Under the pieces are notes generated by a model that was not told where the DNA came from, made no database searches, and saw nothing but the letters and a program-made list of their open reading frames with translations. Of a stretch of 64,000 bases of DNA, positions 1 to 21,400 are shown one piece after another. The stretch is from an uncultured bacterium (GTDB lineage: Bacteria; Bdellovibrionota; JACOXK01; 2-02-FULL-40-11): NCBI GenBank assembly GCA_964371555.1, contig CAYJMQ010000002.1, positions 5,521-69,520 of the forward strand, written 5' to 3'. Every line of letters starts with the position of its first letter. Position 1 is the first letter of the stretch. The position numbers and the translations under genes are program-made.

Positions 1-885
1 ACAGTGGCATTGATGAGAAAAAGGGATAAAAAAATTTACGCGACATTGCTCATTGAAGAAGTTTACAAAGTAGACAAATTGAAAATCTGTAAGAAATGGT
101 TTGGGACGACTCATCTTCATCATCCCGGTGTTTTTTATTTAATGTCGAGGGGTGATTATTTTATAGCGGGGAAAGTTAATTTATTGAAAAGGATTCCCAC
201 GCCCCACAAACATTATGAGCTTACCCCTTCCCAGACAAGAAAGATTTTTAAGGAAAAAGGGTGGTCGGTCATTGTCGGTTTTCATACGAGGAATCCGATT
301 CACCGGGCGCATGAATATATTCAACGCAAGGCTCTGGAAGAGATTCGGGGGGATGGCCTGTTTGTCCATCCTGTCGTGGGGCAAAAGAAAAAAGGGGATT
401 TTGAGACGCATATTATTGTGAAAAGCTATGAAATTATGATGAGGAATTATTATCCAAAGAAAAAAGTACTGATGGGGGCTTTTTGGACTTATCCGAGATA
501 TGGGGGTCCAAGAGAGGCCCTCTTTTCCGCTATTTGCAGGCAGAACTTTGGGTGCAGTCATTTCATTGTAGGCAGGGATCATACGGGGGTAAATCATCTT
601 TATCACAGCATGGCTTCGCATGAAATATTTGGAAAATTTCCGGAATTAAAAATCAGACCGGTTTTCTTTGATGAAGTATTTTATTCGAAGAAGCATAAAA
701 AATATCTTATCCATTCTGGGAAAAATGATGCCCATAAAATAAATTATTTTCCGATAAGTGGCACTGATATTAAGCAAACCCTGTCTGAGAATAAGACGCC
801 GCCGGTGTGGCTCATGAGACCTAAAATAGCCAAAATGATTTTTGATCAGAAAGAAAATGGGTCTAAAAGAATATTCGTCGAATAA
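1..885 (+). CDS. sat: sulfate adenylyltransferase (ATP sulfurylase), 5'-truncated by window edge
   Basis: ORF 4..885; motifs GFHTRNPIHRAHE (QTRN/HxxH) and IVGRDHTGV (GRD loop) are diagnostic of ATP sulfurylase. Confidence 0.8.
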   Translation, partial: TVALMRKRDKKIYATLLIEEVYKVDKLKICKKWFGTTHLHHPGVFYLMSRGDYFIAGKVNLLKRIPTPHKHYELTPSQTRKIFKEKGWSVIVGFHTRNPIHRAHEYIQRKALEEIRGDGLFVHPVVGQKKKGDFETHIIVKSYEIMMRNYYPKKKVLMGAFWTYPRYGGPREALFSAICRQNFGCSHFIVGRDHTGVNHLYHSMASHEIFGKFPELKIRPVFFDEVFYSKKHKKYLIHSGKNDAHKINYFPISGTDIKQTLSENKTPPVWLMRPKIAKMIFDQKENGSKRIFVE

Positions 886-4638: not shown

Positions 4639-5196
4639 GTGAGCCGGTTGAGAGTTCTACTGGTCTATCCCAATTATATGATGGTCAATCTTCTTCCTAC
4701 CAATATTGGGATCCTGACCGCCTGTCTCGTTCGCGAAGGATACGAAGTCGATCTTTTTGATACCACATTCTACCGGACGGCCGAAAAAAGCATTGATGAA
4801 ATGCGGACTGAAAACCTTCAATTTCGGAAGTTTGATTTGTCCGAGGTTGGTATTTTTTATAATGAAAATCCAGTCGATGCCGATTTCGTAAAAAAGGTGA
4901 GAGCGTTTAAACCCGATCTGATCGGGGTTTCCACCGTTGAAGACACATGGCCGCAGGCGCTCAAACTCCTTCATGCAATCCCGGAAACAGAGCGCCCCAA
5001 AGTGATCGTGGGGGGGATTTTCCCCACACTTGCCCCGGACATGGTCATTGGCGACAGCGCTGTCGATTATATCTGTATCGGAGAGGGGGAGGAGGCGCTG
5101 CTTGAGGTCTGTCGTGAACTTGAAAAGGGAAATGAACCGACCCGTGTCAAAATACCTGGGGGAAATCGGGGGGGAAGATTTTCAAGAACTGTATGA
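4639..5196 (+). CDS. B12-binding domain fragment of a class B radical SAM enzyme (N-terminal part, interrupted by a frameshift)
   Basis: Cobalamin-binding-domain-like sequence (LLVYPNY...DLIGVSTVED...VIVGGIFPT); reading frame terminates just after the G7 run at 5168-5174. Confidence 0.6.
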   Translation: MSRLRVLLVYPNYMMVNLLPTNIGILTACLVREGYEVDLFDTTFYRTAEKSIDEMRTENLQFRKFDLSEVGIFYNENPVDADFVKKVRAFKPDLIGVSTVEDTWPQALKLLHAIPETERPKVIVGGIFPTLAPDMVIGDSAVDYICIGEGEEALLEVCRELEKGNEPTRVKIPGGNRGGRFSRTV

Positions 5197-6212
5197 GACC
5201 CCCCATTCCATTGGAAGAGGTTCCGTTTGCCGATTTTACATTGTTTGAAGAGAAGCGTTTTTTTCGGCCGATGCAGGGAAAGATTTTTCGCATGCTCCCG
5301 ATTGAAACCGATCGGGGGTGCCCCTACACCTGCCGGTTTTGTGAGGCCCCTCAATTAAACAGAATTTATAGGACTGAGACTGCTTCGAGATATTTCAGGC
5401 GCAAAGACTGGAAATTGGTGCATGAAGAGCTTGGGCATTACGTGGAAAAATACAATATGCAGTACGTCTATTTCAACGCGGAAACATTCCTCGCCATGTC
5501 GCAGGAAGAGTTTGATCAGTTCATTGAGATCTACTCGGACTTTAAAATCCCCTTTTGGTGCCAGACGCGAATTGAAACGATTAATCTCGAAAAGTTGCGC
5601 CTCATGGAAAAGGTAAACTGCAACCGGATTTCAGTCGGTCTTGAGCATGGGAATGAGGAATTTCGGCGCAAGGTGGTCGGAAAGGGATTTACGAACCAGA
5701 TGATGATTGAAAATTTTAAACTCTTTGACAAAGTTTCAGTTCCAGTGTCGATCAATAATATTCTGGGCTTTCCAGACGAAACGCGGGAGATGGTCTTTGA
5801 TACAATCGAACTCAACCGGCATCTGACTACTGATAGTGTTAACGCCTATTATTTTGTCCCTTACCGGGGGACCCCGTTTTACGAGATTTGTCTCGAAAAG
5901 GGATACATTAGTAAAGATACTGTAACGAAGCCTCTCACCATGGGATCGTGTTTAAATATGCCGTATCTTTCATCAGAGCAAATTCAGGGTTTGGTCAGGA
6001 CATTCAGTCTTTATGTAAAATTTCCAAAATTTGATTGGCCTAAAATCAGAAGAGCGGAGAAGATGGATGAAGAGGGGAACCGTATTTTTAAGGAGCTTGC
6101 GGAAAAATATTATGAATATTTCTTTGATGATGACTTTAAGGCATACAGAAGGGCATGCTTCAATTCCCATATCTATCACTACCAGGTTCCCCAATATCTT
6201 GCGGCGTCCTAG
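5193..6212 (+). CDS. radical SAM domain fragment (C-terminal part of the same B12-binding radical SAM enzyme)
   Basis: CPYTCRFC (CxxxCxxC) cluster; in-frame upstream sequence (PIPLEEVPFADFTLFEE) continues the B12-rSAM linker without a start; adding one G to the G7 run fuses it to the 4639 ORF. Confidence 0.6.
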   Translation: MRPPIPLEEVPFADFTLFEEKRFFRPMQGKIFRMLPIETDRGCPYTCRFCEAPQLNRIYRTETASRYFRRKDWKLVHEELGHYVEKYNMQYVYFNAETFLAMSQEEFDQFIEIYSDFKIPFWCQTRIETINLEKLRLMEKVNCNRISVGLEHGNEEFRRKVVGKGFTNQMMIENFKLFDKVSVPVSINNILGFPDETREMVFDTIELNRHLTTDSVNAYYFVPYRGTPFYEICLEKGYISKDTVTKPLTMGSCLNMPYLSSEQIQGLVRTFSLYVKFPKFDWPKIRRAEKMDEEGNRIFKELAEKYYEYFFDDDFKAYRRACFNSHIYHYQVPQYLAAS

Positions 6213-6215
6213 GAT

Positions 6216-7070
6216 TTGATGGTTGAAGATCGAAAGATAATCAGTATCGATGAACTCTACGGAGTCTATAAAGAGGCCCGGGGGGATGAGTTGATTGTCG
6301 ATTTGCGTCCGGGGACCGACTACCGTGAAATGCATATTGAAGATTCTTTAAATATCCCCTTCAATCGATTGCAATTGGGATCTTTCGATCTCAAAAAAAT
6401 TAAACGCGCCTATGTGATTTGTAAATCGGGGAGTGAGGCGCCGATGGCGGCAAAGCAGATGGGGCGTCGCTACCCGGAAATTGAAATTTATTTTATCGCC
6501 CATGGCGGATTTGACGAGTGGGTTGAAAAAAAATATCCGCTGGTATCCGCTAAAGTTTTAAAACTCAAGAATGCGGTTGAGCTGGAGCAGAATGAGCCAG
6601 ATTTTATCAATTTAAAAAAAACGACCCGGTTGATCACTCAAGAGTGGAGATCGCGAGTTGAGGGAATAAATTATTTTAAAGATCATGAAAGGAATTGTTA
6701 TCTGATTTCAGACGTTAAACGCGGGGAGTCGATCCTGATCAATCCGCTGATCGAAATACACCATCATATTATCGATCAGATCGTGAGGCTTGACTGCGAG
6801 TGTGTGGCGATCTTGTATGATGAGCATCTTCGTTGGAATTTCAGTCCGCCTCCATCCGTGCATGCCAAAGACTTTTCGCAGCTTGTCAGAGGGAAATGTT
6901 ATTCTTTCTCTTCGGTTCATGCCTCGTCCCTCTGGTCAGGCGATCTCATTTCTATGACGGATGACAAGGGACACAACGGGATTCTCTACAAAGGAATTGC
7001 ATTTCATTGCAAACAGTTCTCTTCCCAGTCCTTTTCAAAGAGATCCGGGCTCTCTCTGGAAATTTGTTAG
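6216..7070 (+). CDS. rhodanese-domain protein with a degenerate metallo-beta-lactamase-like C-terminal region
   Basis: The first ~100 aa have the rhodanese fold with an active-site Cys loop (YVICKSGSEAP); the downstream NCYLISDVKRGESILINP resembles an MBL N-terminus, but the HxHxDH motif is not intact. Confidence 0.45.
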   Translation: MMVEDRKIISIDELYGVYKEARGDELIVDLRPGTDYREMHIEDSLNIPFNRLQLGSFDLKKIKRAYVICKSGSEAPMAAKQMGRRYPEIEIYFIAHGGFDEWVEKKYPLVSAKVLKLKNAVELEQNEPDFINLKKTTRLITQEWRSRVEGINYFKDHERNCYLISDVKRGESILINPLIEIHHHIIDQIVRLDCECVAILYDEHLRWNFSPPPSVHAKDFSQLVRGKCYSFSSVHASSLWSGDLISMTDDKGHNGILYKGIAFHCKQFSSQSFSKRSGLSLEIC

Positions 7071-8585: not shown

Positions 8586-9005
8586 TCATATCAAGAGTTG
8601 GGTAATTTTCTGATGAAGCATTTTCCCTATTTGAAGCCAATCGTTAATTTCTTCTTCACTTAAAGACGGGGATTCAATACCATATTGGCTTTGATTTCTG
8701 AGATCTTTTAATACTTCCATCGTAGAAATCTCGCTTTTTAATGATTTGCCATAAATTTCCTTTACATAGAGGATAGTGCAATAATGAGAGCGTTCTTTAA
8801 TACCATCTTTATAGAGAAGAGCCTTGATCATATGGAAAAAAGCTTGATAAAGCCTTTGCTCGGTAACTTCTAAAAGTTTTGCATCCCTAAGCTTAGGAAT
8901 TTCATCCAAAATAGAAACCCCTCTTTTCAGAGATTTTTTGGCCAAAGATAAATCCGCAGTCATCTTTTTTAATTGTCCTGTGTCAAAGCATTTCTTAAGC
9001 GACAT
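8586..9005 (-). CDS. HEPN domain protein (toxin of a HEPN/MNT toxin-antitoxin pair)
   Basis: 139 aa all-helical protein; HEPN-like LRNQSQY motif region; overlaps the upstream MNT gene by 11 nt. Confidence 0.6.
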   Translation of the reverse strand: MSLKKCFDTGQLKKMTADLSLAKKSLKRGVSILDEIPKLRDAKLLEVTEQRLYQAFFHMIKALLYKDGIKERSHYCTILYVKEIYGKSLKSEISTMEVLKDLRNQSQYGIESPSLSEEEINDWLQIGKMLHQKITQLLI

Positions 9006-9531
9006 TAAAAACCTCTAGATATGTTGTTAAGGACTGTAGTTTTAACCGGTAAAAAAATTCTGAATCCTTTTGTTGCAAATCCTTTAAATACTGTTTTGTT
9101 AAATAAATAACATTGATTTGTCGAGAAAATTCTTTGGATAATGCGTCAATAATTGGTCGAATTCTATCACTCTCTCCTTTGGGCAAATAGACCCATATAT
9201 CGATATCTGAATTTTGGTCAAAGGTTCCTTGAGCAAAGCTTCCATAAATTCCACAGGGGCCAATTTTATTAAGCGCCTTCCAAGCTTTTGAATTTTCCAG
9301 TTTGGATTCTAAAATGAATTTTCTATATCCTATTAACTTTTGTGAAGATGGATTAACTGAATAAAAAACCCTTCGTAAATCACCTTTTTTTTTGATAATC
9401 ATCTTCTTTTTAAGAAGCCAAATGAGCCATTTTTGTGCTTGGGAAGGAGAAATTCTCAATTTTCTAGCAATTTCATTGGGATAACTTGGCCCATTTCCTA
9501 TGAGATCAATGATGTTAAAAGTAATTTTCAT
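8995..9531 (-). CDS. minimal nucleotidyltransferase (MNT) antitoxin with N-terminal winged-helix domain
   Basis: GIYGSFAQGTFDQNSDIDIWV is the GSx9-13DxD nucleotidyltransferase signature; N-terminal wHTH-like segment; gene order MNT then HEPN is canonical. Confidence 0.65.
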   Translation of the reverse strand: MKITFNIIDLIGNGPSYPNEIARKLRISPSQAQKWLIWLLKKKMIIKKKGDLRRVFYSVNPSSQKLIGYRKFILESKLENSKAWKALNKIGPCGIYGSFAQGTFDQNSDIDIWVYLPKGESDRIRPIIDALSKEFSRQINVIYLTKQYLKDLQQKDSEFFYRLKLQSLTTYLEVFNVA

Positions 9532-9553: not shown

Positions 9554-9592
9554 CATTCTTTTATAAGAATATAACATTCTTATAAAAGAATG
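9554..9592. promoter_or_regulatory. perfect 17-bp inverted repeat (cattcttttataagaat / attcttataaaagaatg, 5-nt spacer), putative operator of the HEPN/MNT operon
   Basis: Seen directly in the sequence, 23 bp upstream of the MNT start codon in an AT-rich intergenic region. Confidence 0.45.
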
Positions 9593-9749
9593 TAAAGGCA
9601 AATATGTTTAGGACTTAGCGTTTGGTATCAAAAATGCCATTCTTGCGGGAGAAGTAGACGCATTTACTATCAAAACGGTTCAAGTAGTTATTCCAATAAA
9701 AAATTTATTTCTTGCACCCTCTGCCCAGACATGGAAAAACTAAATATAG

Positions 9750-11441
9750 ATGGATCGTGTCAGTGATGTAACCCTTCTCGATTGCACCATCCGGGACGGG
9801 GGATTTTTTAATCAGTGGAATTTTGAAGACCGGGTTGTCAGGGATGTCTATCGCGCTGTGTCGGCGTCTGGGGTCGGAATTGCCGAGCTTGGATACAGAG
9901 TCAATGAGAAATTTTCTGAACCAGAAAGGCTCAAAGAGCCATATGGAAAATGGAGATTTTCTTCTGAAGAGGATCTGAGGCGGGCGACTGAGGGGCTCAA
10001 ATCCCAGGGTGGCGCCAGGATCGCCGTTATGTCAGATTTTGGAAAAGTCGATCTCACCGATTTCGCTCAAGCCAGAGAAAGTGTTGTCGATATTGTCCGA
10101 TTGGCCGCGCACAAAGATCAGCTCTTTAAAGCGATTCAGTTTTTGGAAAAAGTGAAGGAAAAGGGATACGAGGTTTCCTTAAATGCAATGGGGTGTGCCG
10201 ATCTTACAGAGATAGAACGGAAAGAATTGATCCTGGCGTTGAAACGCTCATCTATCGATATGATCTATCTGGCCGATAGCTACGGATCGATCCTTCCGCA
10301 CCAGGTCAGATCCCTCTTTGAGCCCTTTTTGGAGATTCAAAATATTAAAGTCGGATTCCATGCGCATAATAATTTACAAATGGCTTTTGCCAACGCGCTG
10401 GAGGCGATCGCCTGCGGGGTTCATCTTATTGATTCAACGCTCTACGGAATGGGGCGCGGCGCCGGAAATTTATGCACGGAAATCATCGTTCTCTATCTTC
10501 AACTCTTAAATCGTAAAAAATATAACGTGATTCCGGTTTTGAATTGTATCGATTCTTATTTTCTCAAGTTAAAACAAAAACTGAACTGGGGATATCAGCT
10601 CCATTTTATGCTCTCCGGGATGTATCAATGTCATCCCAACTTTGCCAAAGAGCTCGTCGAGTTTCGGGAATACGCGGCAGAAGATATCTGCCGGATTATG
10701 GAAAGAATTAAGGAGGCGCGGCCGATCGGCTATCGCCCCGATCTGATTCGCGGGATTATTGAAAAGGGATATGTTGAAACGCTGGCAAAAGACGCGGTTC
10801 CTTATGTCGGTCGCCATGAGGGGAGAGACTTTCTCATTCTCGCGAATGGACCTTCTTTAAAACAATTCAAATCTCAAATCGATCGTTTTATTGAAAAGTA
10901 TGATCCCGTGGTGATGGGGACGAATCACCTTTCTGGATTATTTGCTCCAGACTATCATGCTTTTAATAATAAAAAGCGATTTATGAGATATATTGATTCG
11001 GTGAGCCCATCTTCCCAGTTATTGCTCAGTCAATATTTTGATCAAAAAATGGTTCGGGATTATACGTCAAGACCCTACGAGAATCTTTATTATAAAGATA
11101 TGCTCGGGAATGAATTTAATATTAAAAATGGCGTGGTTCAGACGAACTGCAGGACCATTTCCGTTCTTCTGATCGGAATTGCAATTGTCATGGGGGCGAG
11201 ACAGATTTATATTGCGGGAATGGATGGATATCTGGGATCGGATATTGAAAATTCTCTTCATTATTATCGTGAAGATGATGAAAACCGAAGCTCCGAAATG
11301 CTTAAAGAGAGGCATTGTTCATGTCAAAACTTTCTTTCTCAGATCAACGACTATTTGCCGGCCGTTGGGCGTGAAAAGCCCTGTTTTCTCACCCCCACGA
11401 GCTACCAGGTTTCATACAGGGATATTAATACATACTTATGA
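9750..11441 (+). CDS. HMGL-like (DRE-TIM metallolyase) aldolase domain fused to a Maf/MptE-like (DUF115, MAF_flag10) domain
   Basis: The N-terminal LLDCTIRDGGF and HAHNN motifs are typical of the pyruvate carboxyltransferase/HMGL-like TIM barrel; the C-terminal 220 aa (ILANGPSL...YIAGMDGY) match the DUF115 architecture of Campylobacter motility accessory factors. Confidence 0.55.
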   Translation: MDRVSDVTLLDCTIRDGGFFNQWNFEDRVVRDVYRAVSASGVGIAELGYRVNEKFSEPERLKEPYGKWRFSSEEDLRRATEGLKSQGGARIAVMSDFGKVDLTDFAQARESVVDIVRLAAHKDQLFKAIQFLEKVKEKGYEVSLNAMGCADLTEIERKELILALKRSSIDMIYLADSYGSILPHQVRSLFEPFLEIQNIKVGFHAHNNLQMAFANALEAIACGVHLIDSTLYGMGRGAGNLCTEIIVLYLQLLNRKKYNVIPVLNCIDSYFLKLKQKLNWGYQLHFMLSGMYQCHPNFAKELVEFREYAAEDICRIMERIKEARPIGYRPDLIRGIIEKGYVETLAKDAVPYVGRHEGRDFLILANGPSLKQFKSQIDRFIEKYDPVVMGTNHLSGLFAPDYHAFNNKKRFMRYIDSVSPSSQLLLSQYFDQKMVRDYTSRPYENLYYKDMLGNEFNIKNGVVQTNCRTISVLLIGIAIVMGARQIYIAGMDGYLGSDIENSLHYYREDDENRSSEMLKERHCSCQNFLSQINDYLPAVGREKPCFLTPTSYQVSYRDINTYL

Positions 11442-12364
11442 ATATGGAACAGGTTTCAATCGTTTTCCCAGTCTATAATGAAGAAAATAATCTGGTTGTT
11501 CTGTATGAAAAAGTGAAAACAGCCTGCCAAATGGCAGGGGTTTCAAGCCAGATGGTTTTCGTGGATAACGGGAGCGAGGATGCGTCATTAGATATTATAA
11601 GACAGCTCAGCCGAAATGATCCCCAGGTAAGCTATATCTCTCTCTCCCGGAATTTTGGTCATCAGAACGCCCTCTTTGCGGGGCTCATGCACTGTAAGGG
11701 GGATGCCGTTATTACCATGGATGCCGATCTTCAACACCCCCCCTCCCTGATTCCCGAGATGATCCGTTTGTGGAGAGAGGGGAATGAAGTTGTTTATACC
11801 GTCAAAAAAAGTGAAAACATCCCCTATTTGAAACGCCTTGTTTTAAAAATTTTTTACAAGTTGATGACAAGGGTTTCCGGGCTTGAGTTTCGTTTTGGTC
11901 AGTCGGACTTCAGGCTGATCGATAAAAAGGTTCTGGAGATAGTCTTAAAGATGCCTGAGTATCATAAATTCCTGCGGGGGCAGATCCGCTGGGTCGGCTT
12001 TAAACAGACAGGCATCACCTTTGCCATTGAGCCAAGATACAGCGGTCAATCAAAATTTTCTGTTAAAGATTTGTTTGTATTTGCAATCGACGGTCTATTC
12101 GGTTTTTCCAGACACCCTCTGCATTTGATCATGCTGATCGGCTTAGTGGTTGGATTTTTTTCTTTCTTATACATGCTGGCTGAGGTTATTTTGCCATGGC
12201 TTTTCAATTCCCCAATGCCTCCAGGGTTTGTTACCCTGGCGGCTGCTATTTTTTTTCTAGGCAGCATTCAGTTGATAGCCATTGGCGTTTTGGGAGAGTA
12301 TGTGGGGAGAATATTTGATCAGACAAAACAACGCCCCAATTTTATTATAAAAGAGAGGTCTTAA
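11438..12364 (+). CDS. GT2 polyprenyl-phosphate glycosyltransferase (GtrB/ArnC/Dpm1-like) with C-terminal TM helices
   Basis: VSIVFPVYNEE...VFVDNGSEDAS...DADLQHPP GT2 motifs plus two C-terminal hydrophobic helices. Confidence 0.75.
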   Translation: MNMEQVSIVFPVYNEENNLVVLYEKVKTACQMAGVSSQMVFVDNGSEDASLDIIRQLSRNDPQVSYISLSRNFGHQNALFAGLMHCKGDAVITMDADLQHPPSLIPEMIRLWREGNEVVYTVKKSENIPYLKRLVLKIFYKLMTRVSGLEFRFGQSDFRLIDKKVLEIVLKMPEYHKFLRGQIRWVGFKQTGITFAIEPRYSGQSKFSVKDLFVFAIDGLFGFSRHPLHLIMLIGLVVGFFSFLYMLAEVILPWLFNSPMPPGFVTLAAAIFFLGSIQLIAIGVLGEYVGRIFDQTKQRPNFIIKERS

Positions 12365-12370
12365 AAATAG

Positions 12371-13111
12371 ATGACCCGGGCAAAGGTTTTCATTTTGTGT
12401 GGAGGGAGGGGGCGTCGCCTTGAGCCGAATCATCCCGGTCTTCCCAAAGTATTGGTGGAACTCCGGGGGAAACCGATCCTTCAGCATATTCTCGAATTTT
12501 ATATTCAGCGTGAGTGGCGTCAGTTTGTTATCTGCGCCGGTTACCGGAGCGATCTCGTTCGTGGTTTTCTATCCCAATTTCAATCCAATGCCGAAATAGA
12601 GATCTCAGACAGCGGCATCGATGCCGGAATGCTTGAGCGTCTTTATCGTGCGCGGCATCTCATCGGTGAGCGGGCGGTCATTACTTACGGAGATACGTTT
12701 ATCGATATCGATATCGATCAGATGCTCAAGGAACATCTGAAAGGAGGGAGAGATCTCACCTTGACAGTCGCCGACATCCGGACCCCTTTTGGCATTGTTA
12801 AAATAGACAAGGACCAAAAGGTCAAATCGTTTGAGGAAAAGCCGGTTTTCTCGTACTATATCGGGCACATGATTCTTGAGCGCAGGGTCCTCGACGAACT
12901 CGATGAACGATTGATTGTTACGCCGGATGGGGAAGGAATCGTCAAACTGTTTCAACTGCTTGCAAGACAAAAGAGACTACACGCCTATAAACATAAGGGG
13001 CTAAAATTGACATTCAATACCTGGGATGAACATAAGAGCGCGGAAGATGTATTTGTGAGGTTTTTTACTGAAGCCGCAAGTCCATTTCCGGAGGAAATGG
13101 ACGCGCAGTAA
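12371..13111 (+). CDS. sugar-1-phosphate nucleotidyltransferase, glucose-1-phosphate cytidylyltransferase-like (RfbF/DdhA family)
   Basis: ILCGGRGRRL (GxGxR) motif, ICAGYRSD; length and motif spacing match RfbF. Confidence 0.7.
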   Translation: MTRAKVFILCGGRGRRLEPNHPGLPKVLVELRGKPILQHILEFYIQREWRQFVICAGYRSDLVRGFLSQFQSNAEIEISDSGIDAGMLERLYRARHLIGERAVITYGDTFIDIDIDQMLKEHLKGGRDLTLTVADIRTPFGIVKIDKDQKVKSFEEKPVFSYYIGHMILERRVLDELDERLIVTPDGEGIVKLFQLLARQKRLHAYKHKGLKLTFNTWDEHKSAEDVFVRFFTEAASPFPEEMDAQ

Positions 13112-13136: not shown

Positions 13137-14153
13137 ATGGCGCGCAGCATGAATATAAGCCTTTTTATGATGTCATTTAGTGGAAAAAAAGTTCTGGTTA
13201 CCGGTGGGGGTGGATTTATCGCCTCTCATCTCACCCGGCGCCTGGTCAAAGAAGGGGCCGATGTCTGGATCACCGCAAAATATCACAGCATCATTGACAA
13301 TGTCCGGTTAGCGGATGTGTGGGGGAAGATCAACTGTCTTGAGGCCGATTTGAGAAATCCCGATGCGCTGAAAGAGATTGCCGCAATTCAACCAGAAATC
13401 ATTTATCACATGGCTGCCTATAATCATGTGGGAGATAGCTTCGCGAATGTTACAGAGGCGATTGATGTGAATGGAACAGGATCAGTGAATTTGCTGGAAG
13501 CGTATGGAGGCTATGAAAGATTTATTTATGTTTCTTCTTCTGAAATTTATGGGCATCAGGAGGCTGTTCCTTTTTGCGAAGAGGCGCTGCCATTTCCAAT
13601 CTCCCCCTACGCTGTCGGAAAATATGCCGGTGAATGTTACGCGCGGCTCAAATGGCATGTGGAGAAAAAACCGATTGTCGTTCTTCGCCCGTTTAATACG
13701 TTTGGCCCGTATCAGAGCCCGCGGGCGATTATTGGCGAGCTCATTATCAAATGTCTCAAAGGGGAAGATATTGTGACGACCGATGGAATACAGACCCGCG
13801 ATTTTAACTATGTTGAAAATATGGTTGAGGCGTTTATATTAGCGGCATTTCATGAAGAGGCGGTTGGGAAGATCATCAATGTCGGTTCAGGAAGGGAGAT
13901 CTCCATTCGGGAGCTTACGACAAAAATTCATGCCGTTGCGCAGTCCCGCTCAAGACTTCGAATCGGGGAGCTGCCGTACCGTCCGACAGAAATCTGGCGG
14001 ATGGCTGCGGACGCGAAGCGGGCAAAACAGATATTGGGATGGACGCCGGGAGTCGATTTTGAAGAGGGACTGAAAAAAACGATTGAATGGTATCGAAAAT
14101 TTATTGCCGTCTTCTACCACGAAAGTTCCGAACTGCGTCGTTTGAGTGAATAA
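13137..14153 (+). CDS. NAD-dependent epimerase/dehydratase (NDP-sugar dehydratase-like)
   Basis: VLVTGGGGFIASHL Rossmann, YAVGKYAGE (YxxxK); the start may instead be the Met at 13167; a hairpin (13120-13141, GAAA loop) overlaps the annotated start. Confidence 0.7.
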   Translation: MARSMNISLFMMSFSGKKVLVTGGGGFIASHLTRRLVKEGADVWITAKYHSIIDNVRLADVWGKINCLEADLRNPDALKEIAAIQPEIIYHMAAYNHVGDSFANVTEAIDVNGTGSVNLLEAYGGYERFIYVSSSEIYGHQEAVPFCEEALPFPISPYAVGKYAGECYARLKWHVEKKPIVVLRPFNTFGPYQSPRAIIGELIIKCLKGEDIVTTDGIQTRDFNYVENMVEAFILAAFHEEAVGKIINVGSGREISIRELTTKIHAVAQSRSRLRIGELPYRPTEIWRMAADAKRAKQILGWTPGVDFEEGLKKTIEWYRKFIAVFYHESSELRRLSE

Positions 14154-15780
14154 GAGGTTCCTACATCTCTCCGTTTTATTTTTGGTATTAATCTTGAGCC
14201 TTTTTCTGGTTCTTCCCACCATTCATAATCATATCAACGACCCCAATGCGATTGTCTATTTTAATCATGATGAAGGGTATCAGATGGATCTTATCTGGTC
14301 GTACTATCGCGGTGAAATTCGTCCGAGCTATGCGGGGAATGTCGATTATGGCCTGGAAATGGTTTACATCACCGATCTTTGCCGTCTCTTTTTTTCCAGA
14401 TTTATCGATTTTACTCCAGGTTTATTTGTTGTCATCATGAGATGGCTGCATCTCATGGGGTGGCTCTTTGCGTTGGTTGTCTTTTGGCGAATGGTCGGAC
14501 GTCATTTTAACAGGGGGTGGCAGCGATCGGCTTCAACCCTTCTGCTTTCGGTTCATCCGGCCTTTGCCTATTTTTCAAATAACAATAAACCCGATTTTTT
14601 GGTCCTCTTATTTATGATCATCGGACTTGACTATTCTCTGCGATTGGTTGAGCGCCCTTCAAAGAAGGCGCTCCTCATCTCTGTCGCTTCAGCGGCGATC
14701 GCTGTTATCATAAAGTTTGCCGGTGTTTTTCTTCTGCCTGCGATTGTTGCAGCGCTCTACTTGGGAAAGGAGGGGGGCAAAGGGGGCAAGGGGGAAGAAC
14801 GGGAGGGGGGCGTTGCAAAGAAAGTACTCTCAGATGGCTTAATCGTCTTTGCCATCTTTGTCTCGGCTATGTTGATCTTTGGTTTTCGATGGTTTCTGGA
14901 CCCTGCCCATTTGATCAATACGTACGTTCAGAATGGACTCGATTTTTCGGGTGGTTTTATGATCAGGGATCTTTCTGTCCCGGCAGCGTTTGTAAAAACA
15001 TATTTGTCGACTCTTGTTAAGAGATTTGTCTCTTTCGATCTGATTATTCTTTCCCTGTTTGGAATATATCTCTTTATGGAGATTTTCTTTAAAAGAGAAG
15101 GATTTTCCTTTAGGCCCGACCAAAGGAAGAAGAAGAAAAGGCTTGTACTGATCATCTATCTTGTCCCCTTTCTTTTATCAATCTTTACCCCTGGCCGTTT
15201 TACCCGGTACCATGCCCTCCCCTTTTTTGCGGCGATCTACATTCTCATTTTCGAGGGGATGGGGATCATGATGTTTGTATTTCGTGACTATCAGATCGCA
15301 AAGGGGATTGCAAAAATTGCGCTGACACTTCTCGTTCTGTTCGACATCTCCGTAAATGCCGCAAGGACAGTCAGGGAAAGGGTTACTCAGTTTCATCAGC
15401 GGGAAGGTGTGTCATTTGAGATCTCTCAATGGTGGCGGCGGCATATTCCCCCGGAAGAAAAGGTCGTAACCGATCATATGACACGCGTCTATGTTCCGCC
15501 CGAACACAAGAACATCACGATTTTTAGAGGATATCAGATTAGCCGGCTCGAACAACTTCGCGGCATCATAAAAGAGGGGGTAAAGGAGGGGGTGAAAGAG
15601 AGTCGGCCACGCTACCTCTATTATAATGAAGGGCCGAGTGGAGGTAAGGCATTTCCGCCGATCGATCTCATGCTTCCGGGTCAAAGGGTAAAATTAGCTA
15701 AATTATTTGAAACTGAGGGGCGGAAATATCAGAGACGGGAAGGAGACAGATTTCTGATCTATGAACTGATGTATGAGTAG
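14146..15780 (+). CDS. polytopic membrane protein, GT-C-like glycosyltransferase (ArnT/PMT-like) with Gly/Lys-rich low-complexity loops
   Basis: More than 10 hydrophobic segments; low-complexity GKEGGKGGKGEEREGG and KEGVKEGVKE loops encoded by G-rich repeats. Confidence 0.45.
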   Translation: MNKRFLHLSVLFLVLILSLFLVLPTIHNHINDPNAIVYFNHDEGYQMDLIWSYYRGEIRPSYAGNVDYGLEMVYITDLCRLFFSRFIDFTPGLFVVIMRWLHLMGWLFALVVFWRMVGRHFNRGWQRSASTLLLSVHPAFAYFSNNNKPDFLVLLFMIIGLDYSLRLVERPSKKALLISVASAAIAVIIKFAGVFLLPAIVAALYLGKEGGKGGKGEEREGGVAKKVLSDGLIVFAIFVSAMLIFGFRWFLDPAHLINTYVQNGLDFSGGFMIRDLSVPAAFVKTYLSTLVKRFVSFDLIILSLFGIYLFMEIFFKREGFSFRPDQRKKKKRLVLIIYLVPFLLSIFTPGRFTRYHALPFFAAIYILIFEGMGIMMFVFRDYQIAKGIAKIALTLLVLFDISVNAARTVRERVTQFHQREGVSFEISQWWRRHIPPEEKVVTDHMTRVYVPPEHKNITIFRGYQISRLEQLRGIIKEGVKEGVKESRPRYLYYNEGPSGGKAFPPIDLMLPGQRVKLAKLFETEGRKYQRREGDRFLIYELMYE

Positions 15781-17851: not shown

Positions 17852-19603
17852 ATGGGTATCAAGGTTGTCATTTGCAATGTTCCGCTCCGTTCTGAAGATG
17901 CCCGGACTACCTATCCCCCGCTTGGCGCGATGTTTATCACGCAGGCGTTAAAATTGAGGGGATTTAATGCCGCATTTTACGATATCAACTATTTTCGCCC
18001 CCCTTTTGAAGAGATTAGAGACTATTTCTTGCGTCATCGGCCAGATGTCATTGGCATCAGTGCTACAGTTTCGACAACGTATGCATATCTGAAAAGGCTC
18101 AGTTCGCTGATTAAAGAAATACTCCCCGATTCAATGATCGTTGTCGGGGGGGCTATTACCGCCTCTTCGGACATTATTCTTAAATTCACAAAGGTCGATA
18201 TTTGTGTGACCGGGGAAGGGGAGCAGGTGATCGTGCATCTGCTCGATTATTTTTCGAAACAGGGGTTGGTAAAGATCGATGAAGAGTTAAAAAAGGTTCT
18301 TGGTATCTGTTTCCTCAATCAAATGGGAGAGATGGTCTTTACCGGCTACGAGATACAGATCCCGGCGCACGAAATACCAGATCCTGATTATGAGATTTTA
18401 AGGGAGTATTCGGAGTTGGATGGCTATATCATCGATCCGAAGTATTATCCCCAATTTAAGTACGATCGACGGACGAAGGAAATGAAAAGACAGGGAAAAA
18501 AGATGGCAACCGTTGTGACCTCGCGTGGCTGTATCGCCCGATGCACCTTTTGTCACAGATGGCAAAAAGGGCTTCGGATTTTTCCGGTAGACCGGGTGAT
18601 CAATCATATTAGATTTCTGATGGAGCGCCACGATGTTGGTTTTATATCATTCGGGGACGAAGATTTTGGGGCTTCACAGAGATGGGTTGAGGAGTTCGTC
18701 GAAAAAATTTCGACTTTGGACATATTATATCGGATTGGCGCGATCCGGGTCGATCATGTTACTCTCCCCGTCCTTAAAAGATATCAAGAGAGCGGCTGCG
18801 TTGCCATTCATTACGGAATGGAATCGGGGAGCGATCGAATCCTTTCTGTGATGGAAAAGAGAGCCACTGTCCAGATGAATCGCGATGCCGCAATGATGAC
18901 ATTCCAGGCAGGTTTGCAGACCGTTCCGGCAGCGGTTGTCGGAATGCCGGGGGAAACTTATGAGACGATAGAGGAGACCGCTGAGTTTCTTAAGGATATT
19001 ACAGAATTTTATCCCTACGACCCGGTTATCAGCCCCAATCTGCTCGTTGCGCTTCCGGGAACCCCCGTCTATGAGTACGCGAGATTTAAGGGTTTCCTCG
19101 GTCAAACGCCGGAAGATGAGGAGAAGTACCTCGTCCGGATTTCAGATCATGGGGGTGATTCCCCCGTTCAGTTTAATTTTACCGATTATCCCTATTTTGC
19201 GGTTCAGTCGTGGGTGCGGTGTCTGATTATCTCTGTTTTGTATAATTATTATAAGAAAAATAATCTTTTGACACTCTCCAATGGAATGTTTGTTGTTTCT
19301 TTATTTCAATTTTTCCTAGGGATAAGGAGGGGACATTCTTTCTCCTGCAGTCTGATGAGTCATCCCCTTTTCTATCGCTTCAGATATGTATTGACACTGA
19401 TTCAGGTGATGATTGTAAATTTTAAAGAGTGCGATACAAAGTTGTTTCTCGAAAGATGCGTCGAACTTCTGGTTTGGCCATTTAAAAGAAAGGCATTCAC
19501 AAAATATATTTCTCTCAGGCAGTTTATGAATGAACGAACCTCCGGTCTCCAGGCAATCAAAGCAAATCTGACAAACCCGCTGCAGCTGCGATTAGGTCGT
19601 TAG
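17852..19603 (+). CDS. B12-binding radical SAM protein (class B rSAM), copy 2
   Basis: N-terminal cobalamin-binding domain (DVIGISATVS...VVGGA), CIARCTFC CxxxCxxC cluster. Confidence 0.8.
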   Translation: MGIKVVICNVPLRSEDARTTYPPLGAMFITQALKLRGFNAAFYDINYFRPPFEEIRDYFLRHRPDVIGISATVSTTYAYLKRLSSLIKEILPDSMIVVGGAITASSDIILKFTKVDICVTGEGEQVIVHLLDYFSKQGLVKIDEELKKVLGICFLNQMGEMVFTGYEIQIPAHEIPDPDYEILREYSELDGYIIDPKYYPQFKYDRRTKEMKRQGKKMATVVTSRGCIARCTFCHRWQKGLRIFPVDRVINHIRFLMERHDVGFISFGDEDFGASQRWVEEFVEKISTLDILYRIGAIRVDHVTLPVLKRYQESGCVAIHYGMESGSDRILSVMEKRATVQMNRDAAMMTFQAGLQTVPAAVVGMPGETYETIEETAEFLKDITEFYPYDPVISPNLLVALPGTPVYEYARFKGFLGQTPEDEEKYLVRISDHGGDSPVQFNFTDYPYFAVQSWVRCLIISVLYNYYKKNNLLTLSNGMFVVSLFQFFLGIRRGHSFSCSLMSHPLFYRFRYVLTLIQVMIVNFKECDTKLFLERCVELLVWPFKRKAFTKYISLRQFMNERTSGLQAIKANLTNPLQLRLGR

Positions 19604-19624: not shown

Positions 19625-21400
19625 GTGATGAAGCTAAGTTTTTTAGATGCCCTGCCGACCGATCCTCATGATCTGGCCATCAATGACGGAATGGTTATTG
19701 CCATGAAGCCTACGGTCCATGCCTGGCTTTTGAGACAGAACATAGCGGCGCAAAATACGCTCCCCTATTTTTCCAATGCATCCCACGAGTCTGCCCTTCT
19801 CTCATCTCAAGTTGCTGCCCAATGGCTGAGAGCCGAGGCGAAGTTTTTAGAGACAACATTTGGCATCGAATATGCCTATCGTGAAATGTTTGTCTTTCTT
19901 ACCCGATTTGCGATTCATTATTGTCTTTGGGCGATCGATGTTGTTCAACACGCGCTTGATAGGCACCAACCGACAGGGCTTCTTGCCTCGTGTCAACCTT
20001 ATCGGCAGACCCCCTCTTTTTATATTGAATCTTTCGAAAACTATTTGGCGAAACTTGTGCAAAGAATTGCAAAGAAACGGGGAATTCCGTTTGAAGTTGT
20101 CTCAGCTTGTGAGAATGGCATTTCTCCAAAATCTCGAAACTTGACCTCTTCGTTTTTTCGAGAGGTTATTCGCCCCATGCTTGCCACAGCAAGATACAGG
20201 TGGCTGAAAAAACGCCATCCCAAAAGGAAAAAAATTTTATATACCACCACAGCTTATCAGATGGATCTTGTGATTGGGGATTTGAAAGAGAGATTTCCGA
20301 ATATCGATTTTGAACTTTTAGCAGAATCGTCCGTCGTTTCTTCGGGCAGATTGCCTGCTCAATGGAGCGCCTTTCAGACTCTTGTAGCAAAACTTCGTCA
20401 AAATCCCCCTCCTTTTTCTTATTTGGGCATTTCCTTTGGCGATCTCATTGCGCAAAAAATAGAAAATAATATTGCCCCTTATCTGGTTGGCTATATGCGT
20501 TCGGCCCCGGTGCTCGATCGATGGCTCGATCTATTAAACCCGGCTGCGATCTTATCGAACGCGAATCGCTCCGATGACAAATTGTTGGCTGAGCTTTGTC
20601 GAAAAAAGGGGATCCCAAATGTCGTAATCAGTCACGGCTCTCACATCTCACCAAAGAACGATTTCGAGCGGATCGAATGGGGGGAGCATGGAAAACAATT
20701 CTTAAGCGCTCCTTATTCACATATCGCGCTTCAATCCCCGGTTACAGAAGGCTACATTGATGCCTTTAAACCCGACGCTCTGACGTTAAAAACCGGGCCT
20801 CTCATTTGGGGGAGAAAAATCAGGCGCGCACACCGCAGGCGCGCCCGCATGGCTGAAAAAATCGTTCTTCACGCGGGGACCCCAAAAATAACATCGAGCC
20901 TGAGATTTCAGATCTATGAAACCCCCGACGAATATATTCAATCGCTAAAAGACCTTTCCAATGTCATTCTCAAGATGGAAAATGTAAAACTCGTCATTAA
21001 ATTTAGACCGATGGAAGAGATTTCTTTAGAAACATTGACCACCCTTTTGCCCAGTGCCCCAAATATCATTGTTGAAACGAAACAGGCATTCAGAGAAAGC
21101 CTTTCATGCGCCGACCTCCTTATCAGTTTTTCTTCAACCACCATAGAAGAGGCGCTGCAGAATCAGATTCCTGTGCTCCTCTATGGCGGGAACGGGCGTT
21201 ATCAGCATATTCCAGCTCAGACGGTAAAAAATGGCGTACCGCTTTCAAAAAGCGCTCTCTATTTTGCTCCCGATTTTTCAGATCTTGAATTTGCAGTCCG
21301 GGGGATTCTTGCCGCCGCGCCCTCTCTTGATGAAAAAATTTTTGAGCCTTATATCTATGGGGAGTCAGAACGCGAGTCGCTTCTCGAAAGAATTTTATGA
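19625..21400 (+). CDS. hypothetical protein with a GT-B/TagF-like C-terminal region
   Basis: The C-terminal LLISFSSTTIEEALQNQIPVLLYGG resembles the donor-binding end of GT-B glycosyl- or glycerophospho-transferases; otherwise no recognisable family. Confidence 0.35.
   Translation: MMKLSFLDALPTDPHDLAINDGMVIAMKPTVHAWLLRQNIAAQNTLPYFSNASHESALLSSQVAAQWLRAEAKFLETTFGIEYAYREMFVFLTRFAIHYCLWAIDVVQHALDRHQPTGLLASCQPYRQTPSFYIESFENYLAKLVQRIAKKRGIPFEVVSACENGISPKSRNLTSSFFREVIRPMLATARYRWLKKRHPKRKKILYTTTAYQMDLVIGDLKERFPNIDFELLAESSVVSSGRLPAQWSAFQTLVAKLRQNPPPFSYLGISFGDLIAQKIENNIAPYLVGYMRSAPVLDRWLDLLNPAAILSNANRSDDKLLAELCRKKGIPNVVISHGSHISPKNDFERIEWGEHGKQFLSAPYSHIALQSPVTEGYIDAFKPDALTLKTGPLIWGRKIRRAHRRRARMAEKIVLHAGTPKITSSLRFQIYETPDEYIQSLKDLSNVILKMENVKLVIKFRPMEEISLETLTTLLPSAPNIIVETKQAFRESLSCADLLISFSSTTIEEALQNQIPVLLYGGNGRYQHIPAQTVKNGVPLSKSALYFAPDFSDLEFAVRGILAAAPSLDEKIFEPYIYGESERESLLERIL

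What the first reader, a model, noticed from the sequence alone, without database searches (positions are those of the whole stretch)
9750..11441. Novel fusion of an HMGL-like pyruvate aldolase domain to a Maf/DUF115 (putative nonulosonate transferase) domain, in a locus that also carries a NeuA-like CMP-sugar synthetase
The N-terminal 330 aa carry DRE-TIM metallolyase motifs (LDCTIRDGG, HAHNN), the fold used for aldol chemistry between pyruvate and an aldehyde. The C-terminal 220 aa match the DUF115/MptE-like domain of Campylobacter/Aeromonas Maf proteins, which have been implicated as pseudaminic/legionaminic acid transferases. A CMP-nonulosonate synthetase homolog lies at 1002-1718, but I found no NeuB/PseI-type synthase in the window. 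The fusion protein could make and/or transfer a 3-deoxy-2-ulosonic acid by a non-canonical route, though this is speculative.
Basis: partly seen in the sequence, partly recalled or inferred. Interest (0 to 1): 0.7.

Follow-up and report, generated by a model that had tools for sequence, protein, structure and literature searches.

The report
Aldolase fused to sialyltransferase-like domain
This gene encodes a real two-domain enzyme (a pyruvate-aldolase-type barrel fused to a Maf/sialyltransferase-like nucleotide-binding domain) from a widespread but uncharacterised family that in most genomes sits next to, or is fused with, the enzyme that CMP-activates acidic sugars, so it probably marks an undescribed route to a surface-glycan sugar acid rather than a one-off novel fusion.

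Summary

The fusion is not novel. All of the top 120 database hits are full-length, 567 stretches in species-representative genomes encode relatives, and PDB 3dxi (2008) is the N-terminal domain of a family member. I found no functional study.

Across 80 loci, a CTP_transf_3 cytidylyltransferase (KdsB-type or NeuA/PseF-like) lies immediately adjacent in 46, within six genes in 55, and is fused as a third domain in 5. A HAD phosphatase is nearby in 47, and polysialyltransferase-like genes recur. Stand-alone copies of the C-terminal domain also sit beside CTP_transf_3, once with NeuB.

Best reading: a pyruvate-dependent synthase for a CMP-activated ulosonic-type acid, with a CMP-sugar-binding, probably transferase, domain.

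The window copy is atypical. It has no HAD, KdsB-like or NeuB gene in 64 kb, and it carries Phe at positions 19 and 298 where the family has Tyr.

The parts
9750..11441 (+). Complete ORF (563 aa plus stop) of the two-domain protein
   Evidence: full-length homologs at 48-94% identity
9768..10511 (+). DRE-TIM / HMGL-like metal-dependent barrel (res 7-254). R15 and D16 lie in LDCTIRDGG (9777-9803); H204 and H206 lie in HAHNN (10359-10373)
   Evidence: Pfam 78.3 bits; 3dxi E=5e-40 and alignment to 4lrs; D16, R15, H204 and H206 invariant in 81 family members; fold match
10530..10766 (+). Helical domain after the barrel (res 261-339), equivalent to the C-terminal helical part of 3dxi and the DmpG-type aldolases; contains family-invariant W280, G281, H295 and P296
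   Evidence: secondary structure of the model; 3dxi alignment reaches res 324; conservation
10821..11438 (+). MptE/Maf/sialyltransferase-fold nucleotide-binding domain (res 358-563). ANGPSL loop at 10842-10859; GMDGY motif at 11217-11231
11438..12364 (+). GT2 with C-terminal membrane segments, PgfS/ArnC-like polyprenyl-phosphate glycosyltransferase; its start overlaps the fusion's stop by 4 nt
   Evidence: 272 bits to PgfS and 169 to ArnC, both below cutoff
12371..13111 (+). Sugar-1-phosphate nucleotidylyltransferase (weakly glucose-1-P cytidylyltransferase-like)
13137..14153 (+). NDP-sugar 4,6-dehydratase (LegB/RmlB-like)
14146..15780 (+). PMT_2 / ArnT-like GT-C glycosyltransferase
19625..21400 (+). 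591-aa protein with no Pfam domain; homologous (28% identity) to the gene directly upstream of the fusion gene in the Brocadiaceae locus L001
21397..22443 (+). Ldh_2 family 2-oxoacid/2-hydroxyacid dehydrogenase, 58% identical to the one in L001
1002..1826 (-).

Best explanation
The gene encodes an intact bifunctional-looking enzyme from a large, functionally uncharacterised family.

Shown: (a) The N-terminal half is a DRE-TIM metallolyase barrel plus helical domain, closest to 3dxi and to the DmpG/BphI pyruvate aldolases. It keeps the metal ligands (D16, H204, H206) and the enolate-stabilising Arg (R15). (b) The C-terminal 206 residues adopt the Rossmann-like fold shared by Maf, GT42/GT29 sialyltransferases and the pyrophosphokinase MptE, with the GxGPS loop and the G-x-D-G-Y motif. 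(c) Across bacteria and archaea the family is tightly coupled to CTP_transf_3 (KdsB/NeuA-type) cytidylyltransferases, which are adjacent or even fused. It is also coupled to HAD-IA phosphatases, often with polysialyltransferase-like or GT-B-like proteins, inside surface-polysaccharide loci.

Inferred mechanism: the barrel generates a metal-bound pyruvate enolate and adds it to the carbonyl of a sugar or sugar phosphate, giving a 4-hydroxy-2-oxo (3-deoxy-2-ulosonic-type) acid. This would be functionally analogous to KdsA or NeuB but independent of PEP. The HAD enzyme removes the phosphate, and the cytidylyltransferase makes the CMP-acid. The C-terminal domain binds that CMP-linked product and most likely transfers it to an acceptor in a sialyltransferase-like way. 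Less likely, it acts as a kinase or a sensor.

In this window the gene is the first gene of a conserved block: polyprenyl-P glycosyltransferase, sugar-1-P nucleotidylyltransferase, 4,6-dehydratase, GT-C. The product is therefore probably destined for a lipid-linked, extracytoplasmic glycan. This copy lacks the usual partners nearby and has Phe instead of Tyr at positions 19 and 298, so its substrate or role may have diverged.
For: ORF and domains.

Family size and conservation: the top 120 hits are all full-length; 567 genomic relatives in species-representative genomes; catalytic and nucleotide-binding residues are invariant in 81 members.

Coupling to CMP activation: CTP_transf_3 is immediately adjacent in 46 of 80 loci, within 6 genes in 55 of 80, and on the same strand in 70 of 72 copies. 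Partners pass NCBIfam's KdsB-subfamily cutoff (262-278 bits vs 255) or are NeuA/PseF-like. Five members from three phyla are triple fusions HMGL-like + MptE-like + CTP_transf_3. A PGAP-annotated Leisingera plasmid shows the triad aldolase-domain protein / KdsB / HAD.

Other neighbours: HAD-IA phosphatases lie near the gene in 47 of 80 loci. A PF07388 polysialyltransferase-family gene sits directly downstream in Bacteroidales loci (49 bits vs 23.3), and there are weaker polyST/GT52-like hits. Loci with both NeuB+CTP3 and fusion+CTP3+HAD modules indicate a distinct second CMP-acid.

Stand-alone copies of the C-terminal domain (about 210-260 aa) lie within 5 genes of CTP_transf_3 in all 3 contigs longer than 5 kb that I looked up, once with NeuB and never with an HMGL-like gene. 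This ties the domain to CMP-acid metabolism independently of the aldolase.

Window operon.
Against: There is no biochemical data for any member, and I found no literature.

The residue aligned with the catalytic His of DmpG/BphI is Tyr in 91% of the family and Phe in the window protein, so aldolase chemistry is inferred, not shown.

The window has no HAD, KdsB-like, HpcH or LdpA-like partner and no NeuB within 64 kb. Its only CTP_transf_3 is non-syntenic.

Nineteen of 80 loci, the window's included, show an NDP-hexose context, and 15 of those 19 (again including the window) lack CTP_transf_3.

The C-terminal domain is nearly as similar to the pyrophosphokinase MptE as to Maf. Foldseek ranked SteA and MptE first and did not list Maf. 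The candidate catalytic residues H403, R468, Y506 and H522 are conserved only in the clade at or above 41% identity.

The identity of the aldehyde substrate is unknown.
Confidence: 0.5

Rival explanations
1. Nucleotide-sugar C-branching or chain-extending aldolase. The C-terminal domain binds the nucleotide handle of an NDP-4-keto-6-deoxyhexose (or a CMP-sugar). The DRE-TIM domain adds a pyruvate-derived three-carbon unit to the sugar carbonyl, making a C-branched or higher-carbon sugar. That sugar is then passed to polyprenyl phosphate and a GT-C enzyme.
For: The window's gene heads an operon with a sugar-1-P nucleotidylyltransferase, a 4,6-dehydratase, an ArnC/PgfS-like GT2 and a GT-C, and the block is conserved in L006. 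Nineteen of 80 loci share this NDP-hexose context, 15 of them without CTP_transf_3. Eight loci add a YerE/acetolactate-synthase-like TPP enzyme, and 7 of those 8 lack CTP_transf_3. Fusing an aldolase to a nucleotide-sugar-binding fold would make sense for a nucleotide-linked substrate. The high pTM (0.83) suggests a fixed inter-domain arrangement.
Against: Sixty of 80 loci link the family to CTP_transf_3, by proximity or fusion. HAD phosphatases imply free phosphorylated intermediates, and they occur even in TPP-context loci. The window protein is 50-58% identical to members in classic CTP3/HAD contexts, which suggests the same chemistry.
Confidence: 0.2
2. The C-terminal domain is not a transferase. 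It is either an ATP-dependent (pyro)phosphokinase like MptE, supplying a phosphorylated aldol substrate, or an allosteric sensor of the CMP-linked end product that feedback-regulates the aldolase, as regulatory domains do in LeuA and CimA. The N-terminal domain is still the ulosonate-type synthase.
Confidence: 0.2
3. Catabolic DmpG/BphI-type 4-hydroxy-2-oxovalerate aldolase, as JGI annotates many relatives, or a Claisen-type synthase (isopropylmalate, homocitrate or citramalate synthase-like) that uses acetyl-CoA.
For: The best characterised sequence and structure relatives are 4-hydroxy-2-oxovalerate aldolases. There are weaker hits to homocitrate and isopropylmalate synthases.
Against: Scores are far below the curated cutoffs (94.9 vs 286; 110.8 vs 229). 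The catalytic His is replaced. No acylating aldehyde dehydrogenase partner and no aromatic-degradation genes lie nearby. The context is consistently glycan biosynthesis. The protein is fused to a sialyltransferase-fold domain.
Confidence: 0.05
4. A Maf-type flagellin glycosyltransferase that has acquired an aldolase domain.
Against: The domain is only about 206 aa and lacks Maf's N- and C-terminal flanking domains. No flagellar genes or Pse/Leg pathway genes lie in the 64-kb window. Family contexts are mostly capsule or O-antigen-like, for example an ABC-transporter locus in Leisingera.
Confidence: 0.03

Closest known systems
BVU_2661 of Bacteroides vulgatus (PDB 3dxi, 'N-terminal domain of a putative aldolase', structural genomics 2008)
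   Same: Same family. E=5e-40 (1.8e-62 with the profile) over res 7-324, with the same RDGGY-x-N-W signature. The entry title shows the parent protein also has a further C-terminal part.
   Different: Only the N-terminal domain was solved, and I found no function assigned. About 29% identity by Foldseek.
DmpG/BphI/HsaF 4-hydroxy-2-oxovalerate aldolases (1nvm, 4lrs, 4jn6, 8ih7)
   Same: DRE-TIM barrel plus helical domain, the same metal ligands, and the Arg of the RDG motif.
   Different: Scores are far below the family cutoffs. The catalytic His is replaced by Tyr (Phe here). There is no dehydrogenase partner. The context is glycan biosynthesis, not aromatic catabolism. An extra C-terminal domain is present.
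Maf glycosyltransferase of Magnetospirillum magneticum (5mu5) and GT42/GT29 sialyltransferases (Cst-I 2p56, Cst-II 1ro7, ST3Gal 2wnf)
   Different: It lacks Maf's flanking domains and has no flagellar context. Sequence similarity is only borderline (E about 1e-3 with a broad profile). A catalytic-His equivalent is conserved only in one clade. Transferase activity is untested.
Archaeal 6-hydroxymethyl-7,8-dihydropterin pyrophosphokinase MptE (8sd5) and SteA (9hmy, 9hmz)
   Different: No pterin or folate context. The alignment is shorter (151 vs 186 residues for Maf). A different C-terminal half.
KdsA-KdsC-KdsB (CMP-Kdo) and NeuB-phosphatase-NeuA (CMP-Neu5Ac / CMP-Kdn) pathways
   Same: The same three-step logic is suggested by gene neighbourhood: a synthase, a HAD phosphatase and a CTP_transf_3 cytidylyltransferase. 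Partner cytidylyltransferases pass the KdsB-subfamily cutoff.
   Different: The synthase is a DRE-TIM (pyruvate-type) enzyme, not a PEP-dependent KdsA or NeuB. The HAD is type IA (phosphoglycolate phosphatase/PpaX-like), not KdsC-like. The product is unknown, and the synthase carries a sialyltransferase-fold domain.

Membership tests
DRE-TIM metallolyase / Pfam HMGL-like (PF00682) | Profile score above the curated gathering score | tested here: met
   78.3 bits vs 29, res 7-254
DRE-TIM metallolyase / Pfam HMGL-like (PF00682) | Metal-binding Asp plus two His, and the Arg of the N-terminal R-D-G motif | tested here: met
   R15, D16, H204 and H206 align with RDG and H-x-H of 4lrs and are invariant in 81 family members
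DRE-TIM metallolyase / Pfam HMGL-like (PF00682) | TIM-barrel fold | tested here: met
   AF2 model pLDDT 86; Foldseek probability 1.0 to 3dxi, 4lrs, 1nvm and homocitrate synthases
DmpG/BphI-type 4-hydroxy-2-oxovalerate aldolase (TIGR03217, NF006049) | Score above the NCBIfam cutoff | tested here: not met
   94.9 vs 286 and 110.8 vs 229
DmpG/BphI-type 4-hydroxy-2-oxovalerate aldolase (TIGR03217, NF006049) | Catalytic His in R-D-G-S-H | tested here: not met
   The aligned residue is F19 (Y in 91% of the family; H only in a small subclade)
DmpG/BphI-type 4-hydroxy-2-oxovalerate aldolase (TIGR03217, NF006049) | Adjacent acylating aldehyde dehydrogenase partner (DmpF/BphJ) | tested here: not met
   None among the window neighbours or the recurrent neighbour clusters
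Pfam MptE-like (PF01973; formerly DUF115 / MAF_flag10) | Profile score above the gathering score | tested here: not met
   23.2 bits (26.3 for the isolated domain) vs 34.6. However, E=7.6e-6 and 19 of 21 relatives match
Pfam MptE-like (PF01973; formerly DUF115 / MAF_flag10) | Fold of solved members (MptE 8sd5, Maf 5mu5), with the GxGPS loop and the G-x-D motif | tested here: met
Maf flagellin glycosyltransferases | Central PF01973 domain flanked by N- and C-terminal domains (about 600 aa or more) | tested here: not met
   The domain is the C-terminal 206 aa of an aldolase fusion
Maf flagellin glycosyltransferases | Linkage to flagellin and pseudaminic/legionaminic acid genes | tested here: not met
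   None in the 64 kb window
GT42/GT29 sialyltransferases | GT-A-variant sialyltransferase fold with a CMP-binding motif | tested here: met
GT42/GT29 sialyltransferases | Conserved catalytic general-base His | tested here: inconclusive
   H522 is invariant in the clade at or above 41% identity but is mostly Asn in distant members. No residue-level structural superposition was available
GT42/GT29 sialyltransferases | Transfer from a CMP-ulosonate donor | not testable with these tools
   Indirect only: fused, adjacent and stand-alone forms all sit with CTP_transf_3
NeuB / KdsA PEP-dependent ulosonate synthases | NeuB (PF03102) or DAHP_synth_1 domain | tested here: not met
   No such Pfam hit. At most a functional analogue, not a member

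The most novel reading that the evidence does not exclude
The family defines a widespread, PEP-independent, class-II-aldolase route to a previously undescribed CMP-activated acidic sugar, with the transferase built into the synthase. In some lineages the cytidylyltransferase is built in as well. In the window's lineage (Tyr replaced by Phe at positions 19 and 298, no HAD or KdsB partner) the enzyme would have been re-wired to act on a nucleotide-linked 4-keto-6-deoxyhexose. That would create a pyruvate-derived C-branched or chain-extended sugar, delivered through polyprenyl phosphate and a GT-C enzyme.
Probability: 0.25. Interest if true: 0.8.

Novelty: new variant of a known kind. Interest (0 to 1): 0.55.

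Why it matters
CMP-activated ulosonic acids (Kdo, sialic, pseudaminic, legionaminic acids, Kdn) are central to bacterial surface biology, immune evasion and vaccine targets. All known routes use PEP-dependent KdsA or NeuB synthases.

A family present in hundreds of bacterial and archaeal species replaces that step with a DRE-TIM aldolase-type domain and carries a sialyltransferase-fold domain. Carriers include gut Firmicutes and Bacteroidales, Campylobacterota, anammox bacteria and DPANN archaea. This would mean an unrecognised acidic sugar, or an unrecognised route to a known one, is common on microbial surfaces.

It is directly testable. Cultured carriers exist (Pseudomonas flexibilis, Methylobacillus flagellatus, Polaribacter porphyrae, Leisingera caerulea, Pseudogracilibacillus auburnensis), and the minimal cassette is only three genes.

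For genome annotation, the current labels ('4-hydroxy-2-oxovalerate aldolase', 'aldolase catalytic domain-containing protein') are uninformative or misleading.

Tried and rejected
- Seven literature searches found nothing on this architecture or on 3dxi/BVU_2661: HMGL-like + MptE-like; aldolase/DUF115/cytidylyltransferase; 3DXI/BVU_2661; 4-hydroxy-2-oxovalerate aldolase + cytidylyltransferase + capsule; MptE/HPPK; MAF_flag10/HMGL; pyruvate aldolase/ulosonic acid/CMP.
- Sequence-profile searches of the PDB for the C-terminal domain gave nothing with the close-clade profile. The broad profile gave only borderline hits (E about 1e-3).
- tblastn of the typical partners (LdpA-like Fe-S protein, HAD, HpcH aldolase, KdsB-like enzyme, NeuB) against the window found none.
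- Promoter and terminator scans around the operon were no better than shuffled sequence.
- I rejected the catabolic DmpG reading and the Maf-flagellin reading on the membership tests.
- I had favoured an allosteric-regulator reading for the C-terminal domain, but down-weighted it after finding stand-alone copies in aldolase-free loci.
Full report
**1. The observation.** An uninterrupted ORF runs from 9750 to 11441 on the + strand (ATG start, 563 aa). Pfam places HMGL-like on residues 7-254 at 78.3 bits (cutoff 29). It places MptE-like (PF01973, formerly DUF115/MAF_flag10) on residues 356-492 at only 23.2 bits, E=6.6e-5, below the gathering score of 34.6. NCBIfam's best models are the 4-hydroxy-2-oxovalerate aldolases, but far below their cutoffs (110.8 vs 229; 94.9 vs 286). 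A CTP_transf_3 gene lies at 1002-1826 on the minus strand. No NeuB was detected in the window by tblastn or by Pfam scans of 41 ORFs, the target included. So the descriptive part of the finding is correct.

**2. The two domains.**
- An AlphaFold2 model built on 40 homologs is confident (pLDDT 86.4, pTM 0.83). It shows a barrel (res 7-255), a helical domain (261-339), a short linker, and an alpha/beta domain (358-563).
- The N-terminal half matches PDB 3dxi at E=5e-40 (1.8e-62 with the family profile). It then matches the DmpG/BphI/HsaF aldolases and, more weakly, homocitrate, isopropylmalate and citramalate synthases.
- In the alignment to 4lrs, R15 and D16 align with the R-D of RDGSH, and H204/H206 align with the H-x-H metal ligands. 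The catalytic His position of the DmpG type is F19 here.
- The C-terminal domain was modelled separately (pLDDT 87.4). Foldseek found only SteA and the archaeal pyrophosphokinase MptE as significant matches (E about 1e-5 to 1e-4).
- A broad family profile of this domain gives borderline sequence hits (E about 1e-3) to two groups. It matches Cst-I/Cst-II through '...SG...A...G...IYL-G-I-D-F-Y'. It matches MptE/SteA through the 'G-R-x-x-x-I-x-G-x-G-P-S' loop.
- Nineteen of 21 close relatives match PF01973.
- The fold assignment is therefore secure. Which activity it has (transferase, kinase, binder) is not settled by fold.

**3. The fusion is not novel.**
- The protein-database search returned more than 3,500 hits. 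The best 120 are all 557-611 aa, cover 95-100% of the query and are 48-94% identical. They come from Brocadiaceae, Dehalococcoidales, Chloroflexota, Omnitrophota and Pacearchaeota. Where named, they are called 'aldolase catalytic domain-containing protein' or '4-hydroxy 2-oxovalerate aldolase'.
- A scan of one genome per species found 567 stretches encoding relatives. The best 80 loci include cultured organisms: Pseudomonas flexibilis, Methylobacillus flagellatus, Polaribacter porphyrae, Saccharospirillum salsuginis, Pseudogracilibacillus auburnensis and Anaeromicropila herbilytica.
- In those loci plus the earlier ones, 81 ORFs of at least 524 aa carry both domains.
- The 3dxi entry is titled 'N-terminal domain of a putative aldolase (BVU_2661)', so a member of this family was a structural-genomics target in 2008.
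- Seven literature searches found no functional work.

**4. Conservation.**
- Across 81 members down to 24% identity, the invariant or near-invariant residues in the first half are D11, R15, D16, G17, G18, N21, E46, G48, R117, D176, G179, H204, H206, D228, G233, G235, G239, N240, W280, G281, H295 and P296.
- In the second half they are G367, N392, R410, G490, D492, G493 and T548.
- Both halves are therefore under purifying selection as enzymes or ligand binders.
- H403, R468, Y506 and H522 of the C-terminal domain are invariant only in the clade at or above 41% identity.
- Position 19 is Tyr in 91% of members and His in a small subclade. It is Phe only in the window protein and its 95%-identical relative L006. 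The same two sequences, plus L011, are the only members with Phe at position 298, which is Tyr in 96% of the family.

**5. Gene neighbourhoods.** I called ORFs in 86 sources (85 fetched loci plus the first 32 kb of the window), clustered the proteins, and annotated the recurrent clusters.
- The dominant neighbour is a CTP_transf_3 cytidylyltransferase of about 245 aa. It occupies the position next to the gene 48 times (27 upstream, 21 downstream), and 70 of 72 copies are on the same strand. It is immediately adjacent in 46 of 80 non-redundant loci and within six genes in 55 of 80.
- Partners are of two kinds. KdsB-subfamily proteins pass NCBIfam NF009905 (262-278 bits vs 255). Divergent NeuA/PseF-like proteins score 59-75 bits.
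- HAD-IA phosphatases, in three subfamilies that are phosphoglycolate-phosphatase/PpaX-like, are within six genes in 47 of 80 loci.
- Five members from three phyla are triple fusions HMGL-like + MptE-like + CTP_transf_3 (132-160 bits for the third domain). They are Pseudogracilibacillus auburnensis, three Campylobacterota MAGs and a Verrucomicrobia MAG.
- A gene immediately downstream in Bacteroidales loci belongs to the alpha-2,8-polysialyltransferase family (PF07388, 49 bits vs 23.3).
- Other recurrent neighbours are weaker polyST/GT52-like and GT-B-like proteins of about 600 aa, an HpcH/HpaI aldolase, an LdpA-like Fe-S protein, B12-radical SAM enzymes, a PfkB sugar kinase and ABC exporters.
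- A RefSeq plasmid of Leisingera caerulea shows, in PGAP's own words, 'aldolase catalytic domain-containing protein / 3-deoxy-manno-octulosonate cytidylyltransferase / HAD family hydrolase' inside an ABC-transporter polysaccharide locus.
- Thirteen loci also contain NeuB. In L034 and L068 a NeuB + aminotransferase + CTP_transf_3 module sits beside a separate fusion + CTP_transf_3 (+ HAD in L068) module. The fusion module therefore appears to make a second, distinct CMP-activated compound.

**6. Stand-alone C-terminal domains.** An exhaustive search with the close-clade C-terminal profile found 547 clusters at 50% identity (225 at E<=1e-10). They include fused proteins of about 560-590 aa and many stand-alone proteins of about 210-260 aa that cover the whole domain. 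In the three stand-alone cases on contigs longer than 5 kb, the gene lies within five genes of a CTP_transf_3 gene. Once it is with NeuB and a NeuA-HAD fusion, and never with an HMGL-like gene. The domain is thus tied to CMP-acid metabolism in its own right. That favours a role in using (or otherwise handling) the CMP-linked sugar over a role as a mere regulatory appendage of the aldolase.

**7. The window's copy is atypical.**
- The first 44 kb of the window is one large glycan region. It holds many GT2/GT4 genes, epimerases/dehydratases, RmlD, two FemAB-like acyltransferases, methyltransferases, three B12-radical SAM enzymes, a CotH-like kinase and ATP sulfurylase.
- The fusion gene's stop overlaps by 4 nt the start of a PgfS/ArnC-like polyprenyl-phosphate GT2. 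After that come a sugar-1-P nucleotidylyltransferase, a LegB/RmlB-like 4,6-dehydratase and an ArnT/PMT-like GT-C.
- The MAG contig L006 (88% nucleotide identity) is syntenic only from window position 9692, which is 58 bp upstream of the start codon, and onward. The upstream HEPN/MNT pair and the PseF-like cytidylyltransferase at 1002-1826 are not shared.
- The window has no HAD, KdsB-like, HpcH or LdpA-like gene.
- Nineteen of 80 loci share this NDP-hexose context, and 15 of them, the window included, lack CTP_transf_3. Eight loci add a YerE/acetolactate-synthase-like TPP enzyme.
- The window does share with the Brocadiaceae locus L001 an Ldh_2 dehydrogenase (58% identity) and a domain-less protein of about 600 aa.

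**8. Interpretation.**
- The best-supported model is that the family supplies a CMP-activated 3-deoxy-2-ulosonic-type acid. The DRE-TIM domain would make the C-C bond from a pyruvate-type enolate and a sugar (phosphate) carbonyl. The HAD enzyme would dephosphorylate, and the cytidylyltransferase would activate. The Maf/sialyltransferase-fold domain would bind the CMP-acid and probably transfer it.
- Shown: the folds, the conserved ligand residues, and the genomic coupling including fusions.
- Inferred: the aldol chemistry, the nature of the substrate, and the transferase role.
- Rival 1: the enzyme acts on a nucleotide-linked keto-sugar, with the C-terminal domain binding the nucleotide handle. 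This fits the window's own operon best.
- Rival 2: the C-terminal domain is a kinase or an end-product sensor.
- Rival 3: a DmpG-type or Claisen-type role. This fails the membership tests.
- Rival 4: a Maf-type flagellin transferase. There are no flanking domains and no flagellar context.

**9. Novelty and verdict.** The 'novel fusion' claim is wrong as a statement about sequence space. The family is nonetheless functionally uncharacterised, and it implies a variant of the known CMP-ulosonate pathways that uses a different synthase. I rate it as a new variant of a known kind, with interest 0.55.

Noticed in passing
window 8586-9531 (-) and 9554-9592: A HEPN (139 aa) plus MNT-type nucleotidyltransferase (178 aa) toxin-antitoxin-like pair. 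An 18-bp-stem perfect palindrome lies just upstream of it, a likely operator. The pair sits exactly at the synteny break with the close relative L006.
   Followed up: partly
window 4639-5196 and 5193-6212 (+): A B12-binding-domain ORF and a radical SAM ORF overlap by 4 nt. This is a B12-radical SAM enzyme split into two genes, or a frameshift. Two further intact B12-rSAM genes lie at 17852-19603 and 25909-27363 in the same glycan region.
   Followed up: no
window 9804-9806 and 10641-10643 (codons 19 and 298 of the fusion gene): The window protein and L006 are the only two of 81 family members with Phe at position 19 (Tyr in 91%; it aligns with the catalytic His of DmpG/BphI), and two of only three (with L011) with Phe at position 298 (Tyr in 96%). 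A subclade (L019, L021, L023, L028, L040) has His at position 19, and three of these five (L021, L028, L040) have an acetolactate-synthase-like TPP enzyme nearby.
   Followed up: partly
L033, L048, L058, L077, L081 (fusion ORFs of 767-787 aa): Triple-domain proteins HMGL-like + MptE-like + CTP_transf_3, found in Bacillota, Campylobacterota and Verrucomicrobiota.
   Followed up: yes
L090 8001-8744; L093 8001-8756; L095 1668-2417: Stand-alone copies of the C-terminal domain (about 250 aa) lie in loci with CTP_transf_3, D-2-hydroxyacid dehydrogenase, a PF04199 'cyclase', B12-rSAM genes and, in L090, NeuB. A 2-oxoacid reductase (2-Hacid_dh there, Ldh_2 in the window and L001) recurs with this domain.
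   Followed up: partly
window 31861-35254 (-): An 872-aa CotH kinase-like protein sits next to a VTC-domain protein inside the glycan region.
   Followed up: no
window 24437-25912 (+): A single ORF fuses a sugar-1-P nucleotidylyltransferase to an AglJ/dolichyl-phosphate-hexose-transferase-like GT2.
   Followed up: no
window 4-885 (+) and 6216-7070 (+): An ATP sulfurylase (cut off at the window start) and a rhodanese-domain protein flank the glycan genes, which hints at sulfated glycans.
   Followed up: no
L087 6983-7942 (Priestia megaterium plasmid NZ_CP071469): A stand-alone N-terminal-domain homolog (319 aa, 36% identity) lies about 3 kb from a divergently oriented set of aromatic meta-cleavage genes. 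The aldolase domain therefore also exists unfused, in a non-glycan neighbourhood.
   Followed up: no
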